NCBI GenBank assembly: GCA_049518535.1
Contig: JBEKRS010000019.1
Location: 12,033-76,032, forward strand
Origin: Terracidiphilus sp.
Lineage (GTDB): Bacteria > Acidobacteriota > Terriglobia > Terriglobales > Acidobacteriaceae
Length of the DNA stretch: 64,000 bases
Reading direction: 5' to 3'
Both the position numbers and the translations under genes were made by a program. Under the pieces are notes generated by a model that ran no database searches, was not told where the DNA came from, and saw only the letters and a list, made by a program, of their open reading frames with translations. Shown one piece after another: positions 40,813 through 64,000 of the stretch. The first letter of the stretch is position 1; each line of letters starts with the position of its first letter.

Positions 40813-43800
40813 ATGCCCATCACTCACATTTCGGTGCGCGGGGCGCGCCAGCACAACTTGCGCGACATCAGCGTGCGCATCCCCCGCAATACTCTCACGG
40901 TGGTCACCGGCCTCTCCGGCTCGGGCAAGAGCTCGCTGGCCTTCGATACGATCTATGCCGAGGGTCAGCGCCGTTACGTCGAGACGCTCTCGGCCTACGC
41001 GCGCCAGTTTCTCGACCAGATCGAGCGGCCCGACGTGGACTCGATCGAGGGCCTGAGCCCAGCCATCTCCATCGAGCAGAAGACCACCAGCCGCAGCCCG
41101 CGCTCGACCGTGGGCACCATCACCGAGATCTACGACTATCTTCGCCTGCTCTACGCCTCGGTTGGCACGCCCCACTGCCCCAACTGCGGAAGGCCCATTG
41201 CCCGCCAGACCGCCGACCAGATCGTCCAACGCATTCTCGAACTCGGCTTCGGCGAGCGCGTCACCGTGATGGCGCCCATCGTCCGCGGGCGCAAGGGTGA
41301 GTTCAAAGAGCTGCTCGACCAGCTCGACCGGCAAGGCTTCCGCGCCCGCGTGGACGGCGAACTGATGGACCTCTCCGAGCCGGTTCCACTCGATCGACGC
41401 AAGAATCACACCATCGAAGCGGTAATCGACCGCATCCTGCTCAAGAATCCGCCCGCCGACACGCCACCTGCAGCGGCCGGTAAGCAGTCCAAGCCTCCAG
41501 TAGAAAAGCGCCTTGATTTGGCTGTGGCCAAGGCCTTGCAACTAGCCAACGGACTGGTGCTGGTGGCCGTTACAGGTGGCCAGGAGCAGTTGTTCTCCTC
41601 CTCGATGGCCTGCCCTGACTGCGGCCTCGACGTGCCCAAGCTGGAGCCACGCAGCTTCTCGTTCAACTCCACCTTCGGTGCCTGCCCGGAGTGCCACGGT
41701 TTGGGATCGCTTTACGATTTCGATCCCGCCAAAGTGATCACCGACTGGTCGAAACCATTGCTGGATGGCGGCCTTGGTCCCGGCTCCTCCTCGCAATATC
41801 TGCTCAAGCTCATCAATCTCGCCGCCGACCGATACAAGATCGACCTTAAAACCCCGTTCGAGGAGTTGCCCCCACGCCAGCAGCACATCCTGGTCTACGG
41901 TCCGCCCAAGAACGAGGCCCCTCGCACTGGCTTCCACGGCGTTCTCACCTTCCTTCGCGACAGCATCGAAGAGGCGCGCAGCGACGGCTACCGCGAGTAC
42001 ATGATGAGCTTCATGTCCGCAACGCCCTGCCCCACCTGCCGCGGAAAGCGCCTGCGCCCCGAGTCGCTGGCAGTCAAAATCGGCGGCCTTTCCATCGCCG
42101 ACTTCACCGCTCTGCCGCTCAACCGCGCGCTCTCGGCAGCCATCAATCTAAGCTTCACGGCGCGCGAGTCGCTGGTGGCCGAGCGCATCCGCCACGAGAT
42201 TACTGAACGGCTGGAATTTCTCTGTGCCGTCGGCCTCACTTACCTTTCGCTCGACCGCAACGCCGCCACGCTATCCGGCGGCGAAGGCCAGCGCATTCGT
42301 CTGGCCACGCAGATCGGCTCGCGATTGCGCGGTGTGCTCTACGTCCTGGATGAGCCTTCAATCGGCCTGCACCAGCGCGACAATAACCGGCTCATTGAAG
42401 CACTCGAAAAACTCCGCGACCTGGGCAACACCGTCCTTGTTGTCGAACACGACGAAGACACCATCCGTCACGCCGATTACGTTCTCGATCTTGGCCCCGG
42501 TGCAGGCCGTCTCGGCGGCCAGGTGGTCGCCCAGGGCACACCCGCCGAGATCATGGCCTGCCCCGCGTCGCTCACCGGGCGCTATCTCTCCGGCGCAGCC
42601 ACCATGCTCCAACGCGCCCATCCGCGACCCCTCACTGCCAAGTGGCTCACCGTCACCGGCGCGCGCGAGCACAACCTGCAAGACGTGACGATTCGTATTC
42701 CTCTAGGCGTGATGACCGTAGTCACCGGAGTAAGCGGCAGCGGCAAAAGCACGCTGATCAATGACATTCTTTACCGCTCGCTCGCTCAAACCATCTACGG
42801 ATCGCGTGAGGAACCTGGCGCGCACGAGTCACTCACCGGCGCCGAGCAACTCGATAAGGTTGTCCGCATCGACCAGTCTCCCATTGGCCGCACACCGCGC
42901 TCGAACCCCGCCACCTATACCCAGGTCTTCGCGCCCATCCGCGACCTTTTCGCCATGTTGCCTGAAGCACGCGAGCGCGGCTACAAGGCAGGACGCTTCA
43001 GCTTCAACGTAACTGGCGGAAGATGTGAAGCCTGCCAGGGCGACGGGCAACGTCGCATCGAGATGAACTTCATGCCCGATGTCTACGTGCAGTGCGAGGT
43101 CTGCAACGGACGCCGCTACAATCAGGAGACGCTCGCTGTAAAATTCCACGGCCACTCCATCGCCGACATCCTCGACCTGACCATCGAAGACGCGCTTCCC
43201 GTTCTGACCGATGTGCCGCAGGTGCGCCAGAAGCTGCAAACTCTGGTCGATGTGGGCCTCGGCTACGTGCATCTGGGTCAGAGCGCAACCACGCTCTCCG
43301 GCGGCGAGGCGCAGCGCATGAAGCTGGCGCGTGAGTTGAGCAAACGCCAGACAGGCCGCACGCTTTATCTACTCGACGAGCCCACAACCGGCCTGCACTT
43401 CGACGATGTCCGCAAGCTGCTCGAAGTGCTGCACCGGCTCGCCGACCTCGGCAACACAGTCATTATCATCGAGCACAACCTCGACGTGATTCGCAATGCC
43501 GATTGGATTCTCGATCTCGGCCCCGAAGGCGGCGAAGATGGCGGCCGCATCGTTGGCCAGGGCCGCCCCGCGAAGATTGCTGCCACTCCAGGTTCCTACA
43601 CCGGAGAATTTCTCAAGCGGTATTACACCTCAGCCAACGGCCGATTGGCCGAGATCGAACTCGATGAAGAACCCGCCGTCTCTGACCCACCCATCGACTC
43701 GCCTGCGCCAGCTCTCGCCTCCGAGACCAGAGATTCGGCAACTCATCTCAACGGCTCCGGTTCAAAATCGGACGAGCCCGCAAGCCGCAAACCCAAAGCC

Positions 43801-43860
43801 CAAAAGAAGACTGCTCCTAAAAAATCCCCGACCCGCAGAAAGAAAACGGTGCTGCCTTGA
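40813..43860 (+). CDS. uvrA: Excinuclease ABC subunit A
   Basis: [41 protein letters not shown], zinc fingers. Confidence 0.97.
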
Positions 43861-60420: not shown

Positions 60421-62019
60421 ATGATCAGTGTAAGCAATGTAACCATGCGCTACGGCTCGAAGGTGCTCTTCGAAGATGTGAGCGTGAGCTTTGTACCCGG
60501 CCGTCGCTACGGTCTCACCGGCCCCAACGGCTCCGGCAAGTCTACCTTTATGAAGATCCTCACCGGCGAGCTGGATGCGCAGAAAGGCACGGTCGTCCGC
60601 CCGCGCAAGATGGGCGTTCTGCGTCAGGACCAATTTGCCTTCGATGCCTATCGCGTCATCGACACCGTCATCATGGGCAACAAGCCGCTCTGGGCGGCTC
60701 TCGAAGAGCGCGACCGCATCTATGAGAAGCCGGAGTTATCTGACGCCGACGGCATGCGTCTCGGTGAGCTCGAAGGCGTCATCGGCGACGAGGACGGCTA
60801 TACCGCTGAATCCGACGCCGCCATCCTTCTCGACGGTCTTGATATTCCAGAAGATATCCACGAGCGAAAGATGGGCGAAATTCAGGGCGGACAAAAGATC
60901 CGCGTCCTTCTCGCGCAAGCTCTCTTCGGCAAGCCCCAGGCCCTGATGCTCGACGAGCCCACTAACTATCTCGATCTCGAATCCATCCACTGGCTGCAGG
61001 ACTTCCTCAATAACTACGACGGCACGCTGATCGCCATCTCCCACGACCGGCACTTCCTCAACTCGGTCACCACCCACACCGCCGACATCGACTACCAAAC
61101 CATCATCACTTATACCGGCGGCTATGACGAAATGGTGATGGCCAAAACGCAAATTCGTTCCACGCTTGAATCGCAAAACGCCCAGCGCGAAAAGAAAATT
61201 GCGCAGCTCAATGACTTCATCGCCCGCTTCGCCGCCGGAACCCGTTCCTCGCAAGTCACCAGCCGCCGCAAAGAGGTCGAGCGCCTGCAAACCAACGATC
61301 TCGCCCGCTCCAACATTGCCCGCCCATACATTCGGTTCGATCAGATCCGCCCCAGCGGCAAGCATGTCCTTGAGTTCAAACACATCACCAAAATCTACGG
61401 CGAGCAAACGGTTATCGACGGCTTCAGCGCCAACCTCATCCGCGGCGAAAGAATCTGTCTCATGGGCCGCAACGGCGCAGGCAAAACCACTCTGCTCAAG
61501 AGCCTTCTGAATAACTATCCCGGCCTCGCCGACAAAGATTTTACCCTCGACTCAGGCACCGTCTTCTGGGGCCACGAAGCGCAAATCGGCTACTTCCCGC
61601 AAGACGTTGGCGCGACCATTGAACACGGTCTCAGCGTAGCCGAGTGGCTCCATCGCTGGAACCCCGCTGCCCACGTCGAAGAGATTCGCGGCATCTTAGG
61701 TCAGATGTTATTCAGCGGTGAAGAAGGCGAGAAGCAAACCAAAGCTCTAAGTGGCGGCGAGCAAGCAAGGCTAGCTTTTTGTAAGTTAATCCTGACCAAG
61801 CCCAACATACTGATCTTCGACGAGCCCACTAACCATTTGGACTTAGAAGCTATCAACGCTTTGAACATAGCTCTCCAACGCTACGAAGGCACGGTCTTGT
61901 TAGTAACTCACGACCACGACTTAATAGACGAAGTAGCCACAAGGTTATGGGTCTTCAAAGAAGAAGGCATAGAAGACTTCCAAGGCCCCTACGCCGAGTG
62001 GAAAGGTAAACACAACTAA
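60421..62019 (+). CDS. ABC-F family ATPase (YbiT-like)
   Basis: Two Walker A motifs (GPNGSGKST, GRNGAGKTT), LDEPTN twice, no TM segments. Confidence 0.92.
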   Translation: MISVSNVTMRYGSKVLFEDVSVSFVPGRRYGLTGPNGSGKSTFMKILTGELDAQKGTVVRPRKMGVLRQDQFAFDAYRVIDTVIMGNKPLWAALEERDRIYEKPELSDADGMRLGELEGVIGDEDGYTAESDAAILLDGLDIPEDIHERKMGEIQGGQKIRVLLAQALFGKPQALMLDEPTNYLDLESIHWLQDFLNNYDGTLIAISHDRHFLNSVTTHTADIDYQTIITYTGGYDEMVMAKTQIRSTLESQNAQREKKIAQLNDFIARFAAGTRSSQVTSRRKEVERLQTNDLARSNIARPYIRFDQIRPSGKHVLEFKHITKIYGEQTVIDGFSANLIRGERICLMGRNGAGKTTLLKSLLNNYPGLADKDFTLDSGTVFWGHEAQIGYFPQDVGATIEHGLSVAEWLHRWNPAAHVEEIRGILGQMLFSGEEGEKQTKALSGGEQARLAFCKLILTKPNILIFDEPTNHLDLEAINALNIALQRYEGTVLLVTHDHDLIDEVATRLWVFKEEGIEDFQGPYAEWKGKHN

Positions 62020-62211
62020 GCGCAGACCGCGATAGGGTCAGATTCCTGCCAACTCCCGATCAAGGATATCTCAAAATCGGAGAGGCGCGGAAGGAATTCA
62101 GAGAACAGCCACGCTTGGCTCCCTCGATTGTGATAATATTCGATGCCAAGAAGGGCGTCAGAGGGATCCTGGCTTTGTGCTGCGAGGAAACCTCTATGGA
62201 AGTGTGAGAAA

Positions 62212-62715
62212 GTGTCATATCAGAACAAGACTTTCGTTTCATTCGACGGGGATACCGACATCCATTACTACCGCCTTATGACGGCCTGGAAACAGAACGA
62301 CAACCACAACTTCAACTTCTACAACGCACATGACCTCAATACCGCACGAGACTCAAGCGCTGAAGAGTCTATCAAAGCACAACTAGCTGAGCGTCTGAGA
62401 AACACTAAAGTATTCGTGCTCTTGGTGGGGCAAAGTACACGTTATCTCTATAAATTCGTTCTCTGGGAGATCGAACAGGCTCTTAAGAGAAATCTGCCTA
62501 TCGTTGTCGTGAATCTCAACGGAAAAAGATCTATGGACAACGAACGCTGTCCTTCGTTGCTGCACAATACCCTAGCGATCCACATAAGTTTCAACGCAGC
62601 CATAATGCAACGCGCTCTTGAGAGCTGGCCCGTATCAGACGCCTCCCTGAGAGCCCAAGGCAAGGGTGGACCCTACTACTATACGGACGATATTTATAGA
62701 GGGCTTGGCCTATGA
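62212..62715 (+). CDS. TIR-like domain protein (Thoeris ThsB / DUF1863-like)
   Basis: TFVSF, FNFYNAHD, LVGQST, WEIEQA with catalytic-type Glu, PIVVVNL. Confidence 0.8.
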   Translation: MSYQNKTFVSFDGDTDIHYYRLMTAWKQNDNHNFNFYNAHDLNTARDSSAEESIKAQLAERLRNTKVFVLLVGQSTRYLYKFVLWEIEQALKRNLPIVVVNLNGKRSMDNERCPSLLHNTLAIHISFNAAIMQRALESWPVSDASLRAQGKGGPYYYTDDIYRGLGL

Positions 62716-63632
62716 GCGCCGCAAGAGTTAGTTATTACCTTAGGACACTCGGCCGAAATGTTCTTTCTCTTAGGGGAGCCTCTGCGCTGCTGAGTTCACT
62801 CGGTGTCCTTTATACAGTTCTGAAATGAGCGGACTACTTTAAAATCGCGAAACAAGAAGATGTTCAAGCCTACTGGTGGGTGTTCTTCGGCGCGGGGTTG
62901 GTGGGAGCGATCTGGGTATGTCGACCAAAGCTCGCAGTCGAATGCAAACTGAAGGATCGCGACACTGCTATCGAGATCGCAATAGGTAACTTGTTTTCTT
63001 TTGAAGGTGCAATCATTGTGGGCACGAACACAACCTTCGACACCCAAATATCCCAGGAGCAAATCAGCGAAACAAGCATCCAGGGGCAGTTTACAAGAAG
63101 ATTCTACGGTGACCATACGTCGCTAGACCGCGAGTTGGGCCTCGAACTCAACGATATTGAGTTCGAAAAACTCGAAGAAAAGCGAGTAGGAAACACGAAA
63201 CGCTATCCTATTGGCACTGCTGTGAGGCTCAAGCCAAAGGATAGAACGGGATACTTTCTGGCAATCTGCCACGTCAACAAGAATGGGGTTGCATCGGGCA
63301 CGTTTGATGACTTGAAAGAGGCGCTTGGGCAACTTTGGATTTTTATCGGGAACCGAGGACAGAAGGAGCCGTTGGTAATGCCAGTCCTCGGCTCTGGCTT
63401 CACACGGCTTAAGCAATCTAGGCAAGTTATCACTCAAGAGATCATTAAGTCATTTGTCGCTGCATGCTCCGAGAAGACATTTTGTGACAAGTTGACAATC
63501 GTCCTCGACGAGAAAGACGTGCTCAAAAACAAGGTTGATCTCGGAGCGCTTGGGGAATATCTCAAGCACTTTTGCACCTATACTGAATTCACTGCCAAAA
63601 CAACCGAAAGAATAGGAACTGCTGTACCCTAA
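62712..63632 (+). pseudogene. Two-TM plus Macro-domain protein (Thoeris type II ThsA-like), interrupted by in-frame TGA at 62826-62828
   Basis: ATG 62712 overlaps the TIR stop (ATGA) and is in frame with track ORF 62880-63632; Macro-like IGNLF..GTNTTFDT, YPIGT, PVLGSG. Confidence 0.72.
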
Positions 63633-63645
63633 TGCCGTGCCGAGT

Positions 63646-63797
63646 TCCCCATCCTTGACGCAGTTTCATCGCGGCAAGGGTGGGAGACCAATCACCCCAG
63701 CCGTCAATTCTCCCGTAGGGAGAATACGAAAATAGCCCAGGGTAAAGCGCAGCGCAACCCTGGGTAAGCATCCCAAAAATCCCAAGCATCCCGTAGG
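63646..63797. repeat. Cluster of REP-like palindromes
   Basis: CCCATCCTTG/CAAGGGTGGG stem 63648-63684; CCCAGGGT/ACCCTGGG stem 63736-63764; direct repeats CCCGTAGG and AAGCATCCC. Confidence 0.6.
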
Positions 63798-63878
63798 ACC
63801 GCTGCGAAAACCAACTTCAACACCCGATGCCCCAACCCCGAATCTTCTGACCTGGAAACCCTGCATCAAACCCACATC

Positions 63879-64000
63879 TTAGGCGTTCCACTGCAACAAA
63901 AGGTCCGGCTCCTGCTCTTCGTTGCTTTCGCCGTTCGTGCGGTCGATCACGGAAAACCCATGCTTCTCGTAGAACCGACGCGCGAGTTCGTTTCGTTCGA
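63879..64000 (-). CDS. GNAT acetyltransferase, C-terminal part (runs off window edge)
   Basis: Reverse strand reads RNELARRFYEKHGF...EEQEPDLLLQWNA*. Confidence 0.8.
   Translation of the reverse strand, partial: ERNELARRFYEKHGFSVIDRTNGESNEEQEPDLLLQWNA

What the first reader, a model, noticed from the sequence alone, without database searches (positions are those of the whole stretch)
62212..63632. Thoeris type II-like antiphage pair (TIR + TM-Macro) in an AT-richer insert
Seen: two translationally coupled genes (ATGA overlap at 62712-62715), more AT-rich than the surroundings, between an ABC-F gene and REP-like palindromes. The first has TIR-like motifs with a Glu in WEIEQA; the second has two hydrophobic helices then Macro-like motifs. 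Known: Thoeris type II pairs a ThsB TIR with a TM-Macro ThsA effector, signalling through His-ADPR. Inference: a compact defence cassette acquired horizontally, the only defence locus recognised in the window.
Basis: partly seen in the sequence, partly recalled or inferred. Interest (0 to 1): 0.7.

Follow-up and report, generated by a model that had tools for sequence, protein, structure and literature searches.

The report
Type II Thoeris pair, effector truncated
A peat-soil Terracidiphilus (Acidobacteriota) has picked up a two-gene type II Thoeris anti-phage cassette (TIR sensor plus membrane/Macro effector), but the effector gene has a real premature stop codon, so this is an ordinary and probably inactive new member of a known defence family.

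Summary
ORF1 (GTG 62212..62715, 167 aa) is a ThsB TIR protein: PADLOC ThsB E 7.7e-76, and the closest solved structure is EcThsB2 (8v6t). The next frame (62712..63632) is a ThsA with a transmembrane part and a Macro domain: PADLOC ThsA E 1.9e-64, Pfam PF20016 E 8.6e-49, and the AlphaFold model best matches ThsA Macro crystal structures.

Codon 39 (62826-62828) is TGA, between the two membrane helices. The closest intact homologues (306 aa) have Cys (TGC/TGT) there. The stop is identical in six other assemblies, so it is not an assembly error. It is not selenocysteine: the genome has no tRNA-Sec and no SelB. The rest of the gene shows no decay, so the mutation looks recent. In an E. coli type II system, removing helix 1 abolished defence. 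I therefore judge this cassette inactive (about 75%).

Horizontal acquisition is supported:
- GC is 0.48 against a genome value of 0.566.
- The pair is absent from 80 orthologous ABC-F loci.
- Homology with relatives stops at the ABC-F stop codon.

It is a new member of a known kind and of low interest. The ThsB active site and the ThsA pocket differ somewhat from the characterised His-ADPR systems.

The parts
62212..62715 (+). thsB: TIR-like sensor and signal synthase, 167 aa, GTG start, TGA stop inside the ATGA overlap
   Evidence: PADLOC PDLC00429 ThsB E 7.7e-76 over profile 2-167/167. Pfam PF08937 E 6.9e-21. PDB 8v6t EcThsB2 E 2.7e-30, aligned from V24 of the long ORF to the last residue. 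AF2 model matches 8v6t with TMq 0.80. E86 is invariant.
62712..62828 (+). thsA 5' fragment: codons 1-38 (amphipathic transmembrane helix 1) ending in the premature TGA
   Evidence: Translation. The PADLOC ThsA match spans the stop (residues 17-287), and read-through adds about 22 bits over the 250-aa ORF. Against the nearest homologue these 38 codons show 21 synonymous and 9 non-synonymous differences.
62826..62828 (+). In-frame TGA nonsense codon (codon 39) where the closest homologues have Cys (TGC/TGT)
   Evidence: The stop is identical in six other assemblies. There is no tRNA-Sec, no SelB and no Rfam hit.
62829..63632 (+). Rest of thsA: codons 40-306 (loop, transmembrane helix 2, Macro domain residues ~73-295), TAA stop at 63630-63632
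   Evidence: Pfam PF20016 ThsA_Macro E 8.6e-49. PDB 8v6q E 3.5e-12. Fold search best matches are ThsA Macro crystal structures. All 50 invariant columns of the 21-sequence family alignment are kept.
62880..63632 (+). Longest ORF after the stop (GTG start inside helix 2, 250 aa). Public annotations call this ORF, or a 243-aa version that, from the sequence, starts at GTG 62901
   Evidence: The start lies within the YWWVFFGAGLVGAIWVC segment, so any product lacks helix 1 and part of helix 2.
62020..62211 (+). Left junction spacer. Homology with relatives ends at the ABC-F stop codon (62018-62021)
   Evidence: The spacer has no similarity to the flanks of other Thoeris loci. No convincing promoter was found.
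63647..63765 (.). Two short dispersed (REP-like) repeats, 63647-63690 and 63708-63765, in the spacer between thsA and a convergent GNAT gene
   Evidence: blastn against the genome finds 3 and about 5 other copies at 84-97% identity.
60421..62019 (+). Flanking housekeeping ABC-F ATPase gene, the conserved anchor of the variable spot
   Evidence: NCBIfam NF011646 E 1.4e-188, below its curated cut-off. Eighty orthologues at 85-95% aa identity in Terracidiphilus/Acidobacteriaceae.

Best explanation
This is a two-gene type II Thoeris anti-phage cassette: thsB (TIR) overlapping thsA (two transmembrane helices plus a Macro domain) by 4 nt. A Terracidiphilus lineage acquired it horizontally, as a bare 1.4-kb module, in a variable spot between its ABC-F gene and a nuo-like operon.

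In an intact system the mechanism would run as follows. This is inferred from characterised relatives and not shown here. ThsB senses phage infection and uses NAD+ to make an ADP-ribose-derived signal, which is His-ADPR in the Bacillus amyloliquefaciens system. The ThsA Macro domain binds the signal and oligomerises. The clustered N-terminal helices then act on the membrane to stop phage propagation.

In this genome a single-base nonsense mutation (Cys codon TGY to TGA, codon 39) cuts thsA between helix 1 and helix 2. Any product restarted downstream lacks helix 1 and part of helix 2. The effector, and hence the system, is therefore most likely non-functional. The mutation is recent, because nothing else in either gene has decayed.
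For: Identity of the pair:
- PADLOC gives ThsB E 7.7e-76 and ThsA E 1.9e-64, both nearly end to end.
- Pfam gives PF08937 and PF20016.
- PDB sequence hits are EcThsB2 8v6t (E 2.7e-30) and ThsA Macro 8v6q/8r66.
- AF2 models match the same structures best.
- The nearest intact pairs have the same architecture: 167 aa, a 4-nt overlap, then 306 aa. They sit in defence islands with type I R-M, Abi_C, AAA_13, DruA, IS66 and an integrase.

The nonsense codon:
- The TGA is in frame.
- Homologues have Cys, TGC or TGT, at that codon.
- Six other assemblies are 100% identical over 1.7-7.1 kb, including the TGA.
- TGA is an ordinary stop here: it ends 8 of 23 large window ORFs, and thsB itself.
- The genome holds only one ThsA_Macro and one ThsB_TIR, so there is no back-up effector.

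Recency:
- ThsA divergence relative to ThsB lies on the trend of 23 intact pairs (mean residual -0.010, sd 0.042).
- All family-invariant residues are kept.

Loss of function:
- In the E. coli ATCC 25922 type II system, removing the first helix or both helices of ThsA abolished defence (bioRxiv 10.64898/2026.01.22.701046).

Acquisition:
- GC is 0.48 against 0.566, the 0.4th percentile.
- The pair is absent from 80 orthologous loci.
- Homology with relatives breaks at 62018-62021 and resumes at about 64807-64873. The gap in relatives ranges from 241 bp to 5.2 kb and holds unrelated cargo.
- Nucleotide similarity to other Thoeris loci is confined to the two coding regions.
Against: - I could therefore not check for minority intact alleles or for transcription.
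- The 38-codon fragment is as well conserved as the rest of the gene. That also fits a still-functional split or read-through product.
- All assemblies that carry the stop are 100% identical, so they may be one clone sampled repeatedly. They show that the stop is real. They do not show that it is ancient or selected.
- The signal is not established for this clade. ThsB has Phe where EcThsB2 has its active-site Tyr8 (116 of 121 close homologues).
- By alignment, four of the six His-ADPR contact residues of BaThsA differ: D100 to N93, N133 to Q124, S194 to C186, Y277 to D266.
- The locus is flanked by housekeeping genes and is not in a defence island.
Confidence: 0.75

Rival explanations
1. The cassette still works. 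Either low-level UGA read-through gives some full-length ThsA, or the 38-aa helix-1 peptide and a restarted helix-2/Macro protein reassemble in the membrane as a two-piece effector.
For: The 5' fragment shows 21 synonymous and 9 non-synonymous differences from the nearest homologue, so it is no more relaxed than the rest of the gene. There is no other lesion in either gene. A GTG lies 52 nt after the stop. The allele is the only one seen in six other assemblies.
Against: GTG 62880 lies inside helix 2 and has no properly spaced Shine-Dalgarno sequence (sequence). Removing helix 1 alone abolished defence in an E. coli homologue. No recoding signal or RNA family hit lies near the stop. Conservation of the fragment is equally expected from a recent mutation.
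Confidence: 0.12
2. The truncated Macro protein, or ThsB alone, has been kept for another role. One example is a soluble signal-binding decoy that damps a costly suicide response. Another is ThsB acting as a stand-alone NAD+-consuming TIR.
For: The Macro domain and ThsB are fully intact. ThsB has Phe at position 8, as NADase-active TIRs usually do.
Against: There is no evidence that the 250-aa ORF is translated. ThsA or ThsB alone gave no defence in characterised systems. Intactness is explained more simply by recency.
Confidence: 0.06
3. The TGA is an assembly or sequencing artefact, or a minority allele, and the real population carries an intact thsA.
For: The window comes from a draft genome of 190 contigs. 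The reads could not be inspected.
Against: The codon and 1.7-7.1 kb of surrounding DNA are identical in assemblies from three JGI samples, one ENA assembly and two Logan SRA runs.
Confidence: 0.02
4. Codon 39 is read as selenocysteine. A TGA aligned with Cys in homologues is the classic selenoprotein signature.
For: The closest homologues have Cys at exactly this position.
Against: ARAGORN finds 57 tRNAs and none is tRNA-Sec. No SelB reaches the cut-off: the best hit is 192.6 bits against 242 and covers the GTPase part only. There is no Rfam or SECIS hit. The position is not conserved as Cys in the wider family (F, I, L, M occur). It lies at a membrane-helix end and not in a redox site.
Confidence: 0.01

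Closest known systems
Type II Thoeris of Bacillus amyloliquefaciens Y2 (ThsB TIR makes His-ADPR; ThsA = 2 TM helices + Macro; Sabonis et al., bioRxiv 10.1101/2024.01.03.573942; PDB 8r66)
   Same: It is a two-gene system with a TIR-like ThsB and a ThsA made of two N-terminal helices and a C-terminal Macro domain. The Macro fold matches 8r66 (TMt 0.80). By sequence alignment, R232, Q126 and the GSG phosphate loop correspond to R240, Q135 and the same loop of BaThsA.
   Different: Macro identity is only about 20%. By alignment, D100 becomes N93, N133 becomes Q124, S194 becomes C186 and Y277 becomes D266. thsA is interrupted by a stop. The host is an acidobacterium. Signal identity was not tested.
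E. coli TM-macro Thoeris: EcThsB2 (PDB 8v6t, ThsB 'subfamily 9') and EcThsA Macro (8v6q/8v6r), Shi et al. 2024, PMC11204291
   Same: ThsB aligns end to end with EcThsB2 (E 2.7e-30; 38% identity in the Foldseek alignment of the model, TMq 0.80). The alignment includes the catalytic Glu (E86 = E89) and the ~20-residue Tyr-rich C-terminal tail. ThsA Macro is the best structural match (E 1.7e-14).
   Different: The hallmark active-site Tyr8 of subfamily 9 is Phe here, and in 116 of 121 close homologues. The ribose-contacting N114 of EcThsA is Gln here. The E. coli locus has two ThsB genes and this one has a single ThsB.
E. coli ATCC 25922 thsA-thsB2 type II Thoeris (bioRxiv 10.64898/2026.01.22.701046)
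   Same: It has the same domain architecture. It supplies the direct experimental parallel: deleting ThsA helix 1, or both helices, abolishes defence.
   Different: That system is intact. It arrests growth without membrane depolarisation, so the effector mechanism of the family is itself unsettled.
Uncultured-soil thsB-thsA pairs (loci L098, L100), the nearest relatives
   Same: The layout is identical: 167 aa, a 4-nt overlap, then 306 aa. ThsB is about 83-86% identical (86% for L098) and ThsA about 70% identical. GC is similarly low (about 0.50).
   Different: Those pairs have Cys (TGC/TGT) at codon 39. They sit in defence islands with type I R-M, Abi_C, AAA_13, DruA, IS66 and an integrase.

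Membership tests
Type II Thoeris (ThsB TIR + TM-Macro ThsA) | A ThsB TIR-like protein encoded next to the effector | tested here: met
   PADLOC ThsB E 7.7e-76 over the full profile. PF08937 scores 75 bits against a cut-off of 21.2. The fold matches EcThsB2 with TMq 0.80.
Type II Thoeris (ThsB TIR + TM-Macro ThsA) | Catalytic glutamate of the TIR active site | tested here: met
   E86 (WEIEQA) aligns with EcThsB2 E89. It is invariant in 121 homologues.
ThsB 'subfamily 9' (EcThsB2/BaThsB class, proposed His-ADPR producers) | Active-site tyrosine hydrogen-bonded to the catalytic Glu (Y8 in EcThsB2) | tested here: not met
   The aligned residue is Phe8, in an ungapped N-terminal alignment (MSYRNKTY against VSYQNKTF). 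It is Phe in 116 and Tyr in 5 of 121 close homologues.
ThsB 'subfamily 9' (EcThsB2/BaThsB class, proposed His-ADPR producers) | ~20-residue C-terminal tail folding back on the TIR domain | tested here: met
   The alignment to 8v6t runs to the last residue (GGPYYYTDDIYRGLGL against SGSYLYPTSVYTKLGL). Y156, Y157 and Y162 are invariant. The tail is modelled at pLDDT ~90.
Type II Thoeris (ThsB TIR + TM-Macro ThsA) | Effector with a ThsA-type Macro domain | tested here: met
   PF20016 scores 166 bits against a cut-off of 25. The AF2 model has pLDDT 81, and its top eight PDB matches are ThsA Macro chains with TMt 0.78-0.83.
Type II Thoeris (ThsB TIR + TM-Macro ThsA) | Two N-terminal transmembrane helices on the same polypeptide as the Macro domain | tested here: not met
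   Both helices are encoded in frame. A TGA at codon 39 separates helix 1 from helix 2 plus Macro, so the intact architecture exists only if the stop is read through.
Type II Thoeris (ThsB TIR + TM-Macro ThsA) | His-ADPR/ADPR-binding pocket residues of the Macro domain | tested here: inconclusive
   Conserved: the GSG loop (S228-G229), T231, R232 (= BaThsA R240), Q126 (= Q135), and N106/D110 (= EcThsA N96/D100). Different by alignment: N93 for D100, Q124 for N133, C186 for S194, D266 for Y277. Alignment at ~20% identity is uncertain near the C-terminus.
Type II Thoeris (ThsB TIR + TM-Macro ThsA) | Phage-triggered signal production and protection from phage | not testable with these tools
   This needs expression and phage challenge in a laboratory host, with LC-MS for the signal.
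Type II Thoeris (ThsB TIR + TM-Macro ThsA) | Accessory, horizontally mobile distribution (defence-island cargo) | tested here: met
   The pair is absent from 80 orthologous loci. ThsA_Macro is in 3 of 37 same-genus genomes. The nearest relatives lie in defence islands. In this genome the neighbours are housekeeping genes.
Bacterial selenoprotein (TGA = Sec) | tRNA-Sec, SelB and a SECIS hairpin after the TGA | tested here: not met
   No tRNA-Sec among 57 tRNAs. No SelB over the cut-off. No Rfam hit in 61900-64000.

The most novel reading that the evidence does not exclude
The clade this pair belongs to combines a Phe-8 ThsB of exactly 167 aa, more than 70% identical across Acidobacteriota, Desulfobacterota, Negativicutes, Cryosericota and even a Halobacteriota archaeon, with a ThsA pocket that has Gln, Asp and Cys where BaThsA has Asn, Tyr and Ser. 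This clade might signal with an ADPR derivative other than His-ADPR. Separately or in addition, the nonsense-split thsA might persist as a working two-piece or read-through effector that lowers the cost of autoimmunity.
Probability: 0.1. Interest if true: 0.5.

Novelty: new member of a known kind. Interest (0 to 1): 0.22.

Why it matters
- It adds a clean example of a type II Thoeris cassette in Acidobacteriota, a major and poorly studied soil phylum. The cassette was inserted as a bare two-gene module, with no recognisable mobile-element flanks, at a variable spot between housekeeping operons.
- It shows a defence effector knocked out by a single recent nonsense mutation that is fixed across several samplings. 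That fits the idea that costly suicide-type effectors are readily lost.
- Annotation pipelines call the 243-250 aa remnant as an ordinary gene, so defence-system censuses could count this locus as an active Thoeris.
- The differences in the active site and pocket point to a very widespread environmental ThsB/ThsA clade whose signal has not been determined experimentally.
- None of this changes current understanding of Thoeris.

Tried and rejected
- Selenocysteine at codon 39: rejected. There is no tRNA-Sec, no SelB and no SECIS or Rfam hit, and Cys is not conserved family-wide.
- Sequencing error: rejected, because six other assemblies are identical.
- Alternative genetic code: rejected. TGA ends 8 of 23 large window ORFs and thsB itself.
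- Longer ThsB from ATG 62143 (190 aa): rejected. Homologues and the 8v6t alignment start at the GTG 62212 position.
- Terminal direct or inverted repeats, or mobile-element remnants, around the pair: none beyond chance-level 10-16-mers. There is no flank homology to other Thoeris loci.
- Promoter and terminator scan: nothing above the shuffled expectation.
- Signs of pseudogene decay in thsA: none found.
- Other defence genes in the window: the PADLOC mad3/mad8 hit (E 2e-97) is UvrA, which reaches the curated cut-offs of both NCBIfam UvrA models. The remaining hits fit generic ABC-ATPase, protease and MotB-type domains, although I did not map them to individual ORFs.
- A defence hotspot at this site in relatives: not supported. 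The gap cargo there is an IS200-like transposase, DoxX, NuoF-like genes and an AraC/DJ-1 regulator.
- Earlier notes of this scan: none for this genome.
Full report
**What is in the sequence**

Two same-strand reading frames lie between an ABC-F ATPase gene (60421-62019) and a spacer that precedes a convergent GNAT gene just beyond the window end.

The first frame can start at ATG 62143 (190 aa) or at GTG 62212 (167 aa). It ends with the TGA of an ATGA overlap at 62712-62715. All 120 listed homologues are about 167 aa. The alignment to the crystal structure chain of EcThsB2 begins at the GTG-encoded residue.

The second frame starts at ATG 62712 and runs to TAA 63630-63632. It contains an in-frame TGA at 62826-62828, which is codon 39. 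The longest ORF after that stop begins at GTG 62880 and encodes 250 aa.

**Identity of the two proteins**

- ThsB sequence matches:
  - PADLOC PDLC00429 (ThsB) matches at E 7.7e-76 over profile positions 2-167 of 167.
  - Pfam PF08937 ThsB_TIR matches at E 6.9e-21.
  - PDB 8v6t (EcThsB2) matches at E 2.7e-30 over its whole length.
- ThsB structure: an AlphaFold model (pLDDT 74, pTM 0.76) has 8v6t as its best structural match (TMq 0.80). Other ThsB TIRs and the nucleoside 2'-deoxyribosyltransferase/DNPH1 folds follow.
- ThsA sequence matches (frame read through the stop):
  - PADLOC PDLC00414 (ThsA, Macro) matches at E 1.9e-64 over residues 17-287, which spans the stop. This scores about 22 bits more than the 250-aa ORF alone.
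  - Pfam PF20016 ThsA_Macro matches at E 8.6e-49.
  - PDB ThsA Macro domains 8v6q, 9uuz, 8r66 and 8v6s match at E 3.5e-12 to 3.9e-07.
- ThsA structure:
  - The AlphaFold model (pLDDT 81, pTM 0.75) shows N-terminal helices at 3-17, 20-43 and 55-69, followed by an alpha/beta domain.
  - Its eight best PDB matches are ThsA Macro chains (E 1.7e-14 to 7.8e-11, TMt 0.78-0.83), ahead of macroH2A, TARG1, PARP14 and MacroD domains.
  - Hydropathy peaks lie at about residues 17-40 and 51-72.

**The stop codon**

- The closest full-length relatives are 306 aa and 66-72% identical over 100% of the read-through frame.
- They read LYTVLK-C-ADYF where this genome reads LYTVLK-stop-ADYF.
- Their codon is TGC (L098) or TGT (L100), so one third-position change made the TGA.
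- The stop is real. Contigs from three JGI samples, one ENA assembly and two Logan SRA runs are 100% identical to the window over 1.7-7.1 kb, including the TGA.
- A TGA aligned with Cys raises the selenocysteine question, so I tested it:
  - ARAGORN finds 57 tRNAs in the 94%-complete genome and none is tRNA-Sec.
  - The best SelB-model hit is 192.6 bits against a cut-off of 242, and it covers only the GTPase half in a 403-aa frame.
  - Rfam finds nothing in 61900-64000.
  - The position is F, I, L or M in more distant family members.
- TGA is a normal stop here. It ends 8 of 23 large ORFs in the window and thsB itself.

**Consequence of the stop**

The first possible restart, GTG 62880, lies inside the second hydrophobic helix (YWWVFFGAGLVGAIWVC). 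It has no well-spaced ribosome-binding site. NCBI's 243-aa call, read from the sequence, starts even later, at GTG 62901. Any downstream product therefore lacks helix 1 and part of helix 2.

[quoted passage not shown] The genome has no second ThsA_Macro or ThsB_TIR gene. I infer that the system as encoded does not protect.

The mutation looks recent:
- All 50 invariant columns of the 21-sequence family alignment are kept.
- Codons 1-38 differ from the nearest homologue by 21 synonymous and 9 non-synonymous changes.
- For 23 intact thsB-thsA pairs matched by contig, ThsA divergence is a linear function of ThsB divergence. This genome sits on that line (mean residual -0.010, residual sd 0.042).

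**Origin of the cassette**

- ABC-F orthologues at 85-95% amino-acid identity come from Terracidiphilus and other Acidobacteriaceae MAGs. Many of their record titles name bog, fen or SPRUCE samples.
- None of the 80 loci fetched carries thsB, thsA or the GNAT gene.
- DNA homology with relatives stops at the ABC-F stop codon (62018-62021). It resumes at window-equivalent 64807-64873, just before a nuoL-like gene.
- The intervening gap is 241 bp in L027, 1.3 kb in L017 and 3.9-5.2 kb in others.
- Cargo in those gaps is unrelated: an IS200-like transposase, DoxX, NuoF-like genes and an AraC/DJ-1 regulator. The site is a variable spot and not a dedicated defence island.
- The pair has GC 0.48 against 0.566 for the genome, and only 0.4% of 1.4-kb windows are as low. 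The GNAT gene (0.556) and the spacer before it (0.561) look native.
- Nucleotide similarity to other Thoeris loci covers only the two coding regions, 62205-63632. No flanking repeats were found.
- ThsA_Macro occurs in 3 of 37 same-genus genomes. The other two carry distant versions, with about 27% ThsA identity where it could be aligned, at other sites.
- The nearest intact pairs lie in defence islands beside type I restriction-modification, Abi_C, AAA_13, DruA, IS66 and integrase genes.

**How an intact system would work (inferred from the literature)**

In type II Thoeris the TIR protein makes His-ADPR on infection. The ThsA Macro domain binds it (bioRxiv 10.1101/2024.01.03.573942). ThsA Macro dimers form ligand-induced higher-order oligomers, which are proposed to cluster the two-helix membrane domains (PMC11204291).

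The final step is unsettled. One type II system arrests growth without depolarising the membrane.

**Differences from the characterised members**

- ThsB keeps the catalytic Glu (E86 = EcThsB2 E89) and the Tyr-rich C-terminal tail.
- It has Phe at the position of the active-site Tyr8 that defines the EcThsB2/BaThsB class. The same holds for 116 of its 121 closest homologues.
- In ThsA, by alignment to 8r66 and 8v6q, these are conserved: R232 (= BaThsA R240, the contact to the histidine carboxylate), Q126 (= Q135), the GSG loop, and N106/D110.
- These differ: BaThsA D100, N133, S194 and Y277 correspond to N93, Q124, C186 and D266.
- At about 20% identity the C-terminal part of that alignment is uncertain, and I did not inspect the pocket in the model.

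His-ADPR signalling is therefore an inference for this clade.

**The rest of the window**

A PADLOC scan of 49 other ORFs gave one strong hit, mad3/mad8 at E 2.1e-97. This ORF is UvrA (NCBIfam NF001503, 1374.8 bits against a cut-off of 1147). The other hits have names that fit generic ATPase, protease and MotB-type domains. I did not map them to individual ORFs. The Thoeris pair is the only credible defence locus in the window.

**Limits**

- The six assemblies are identical, so they may all sample one clone.
- No earlier notes of this scan exist for this genome.

**Verdict**

The important addition is that the effector gene is cut by a genuine and apparently recent nonsense mutation, so the cassette is probably inactive (about 75%). 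It is a new member of a known kind and of low interest.

Noticed in passing
window 61700-62019: The last ~300 nt of the ABC-F gene, next to the insert, are AT-enriched. GC is 0.47 against 0.55-0.60 in the five orthologues measured, and third-position GC is 0.56-0.62 against 0.75-0.79 in seven. Nucleotide identity to orthologues drops only slightly and the protein is conserved. The cause is unknown. It could be a recombination tract from the acquisition event or a local mutational bias.
   Followed up: partly
window 63647-63690 and 63708-63765: Two short dispersed repeat elements with internal palindromes (for example CTCCCGTAGGGAG and CCCAGGG...CCCTGGG). Each has about 3-5 other copies on other contigs of the genome at 84-97% identity. 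They form a low-copy REP/MITE-like family in this Terracidiphilus.
   Followed up: partly
window 40813-43857 (+): The housekeeping UvrA (NCBIfam NF001503, 1374.8 bits) hits the PADLOC models mad3 (E 2.1e-97) and mad8 (E 4.9e-38). This is a trap for automated defence-system calls based on single-gene hits.
   Followed up: yes
window 62022 to about 64870 (beyond the window end; seen in L002) and loci L016, L017, L027, L047, L048, L054: The interval between the ABC-F gene and the nuoL-like operon varies across Terracidiphilus genomes, from 241 bp to 5.2 kb. The cargo differs between genomes and includes an IS200-like Y1 transposase, DoxX, NuoF-like and 2Fe-2S genes, and an AraC/DJ-1 regulator. 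Here it holds thsBA plus a GNAT acetyltransferase.
   Followed up: partly
ThsB homologues P0126-P0244: This ThsB subfamily is unusually uniform. Nearly all of the top 120 database clusters are exactly 167 aa and at least 69% identical. Their sources are annotated as Acidobacteriota, Smithellaceae, Desulfomonilia, Negativicutes, Cryosericum and a Halobacteriota archaeon. The partner ThsA diverges about 1.5-1.9 times faster.
   Followed up: partly
window 62712-62828: Public JGI, ENA and Logan gene calls list the 38-codon thsA 5' fragment as a separate small gene on some contigs and list the 250-aa remnant as a normal ThsA_Macro gene. NCBI calls a 243-aa version. None of the gene tables I saw marks the locus as disrupted.
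   Followed up: yes
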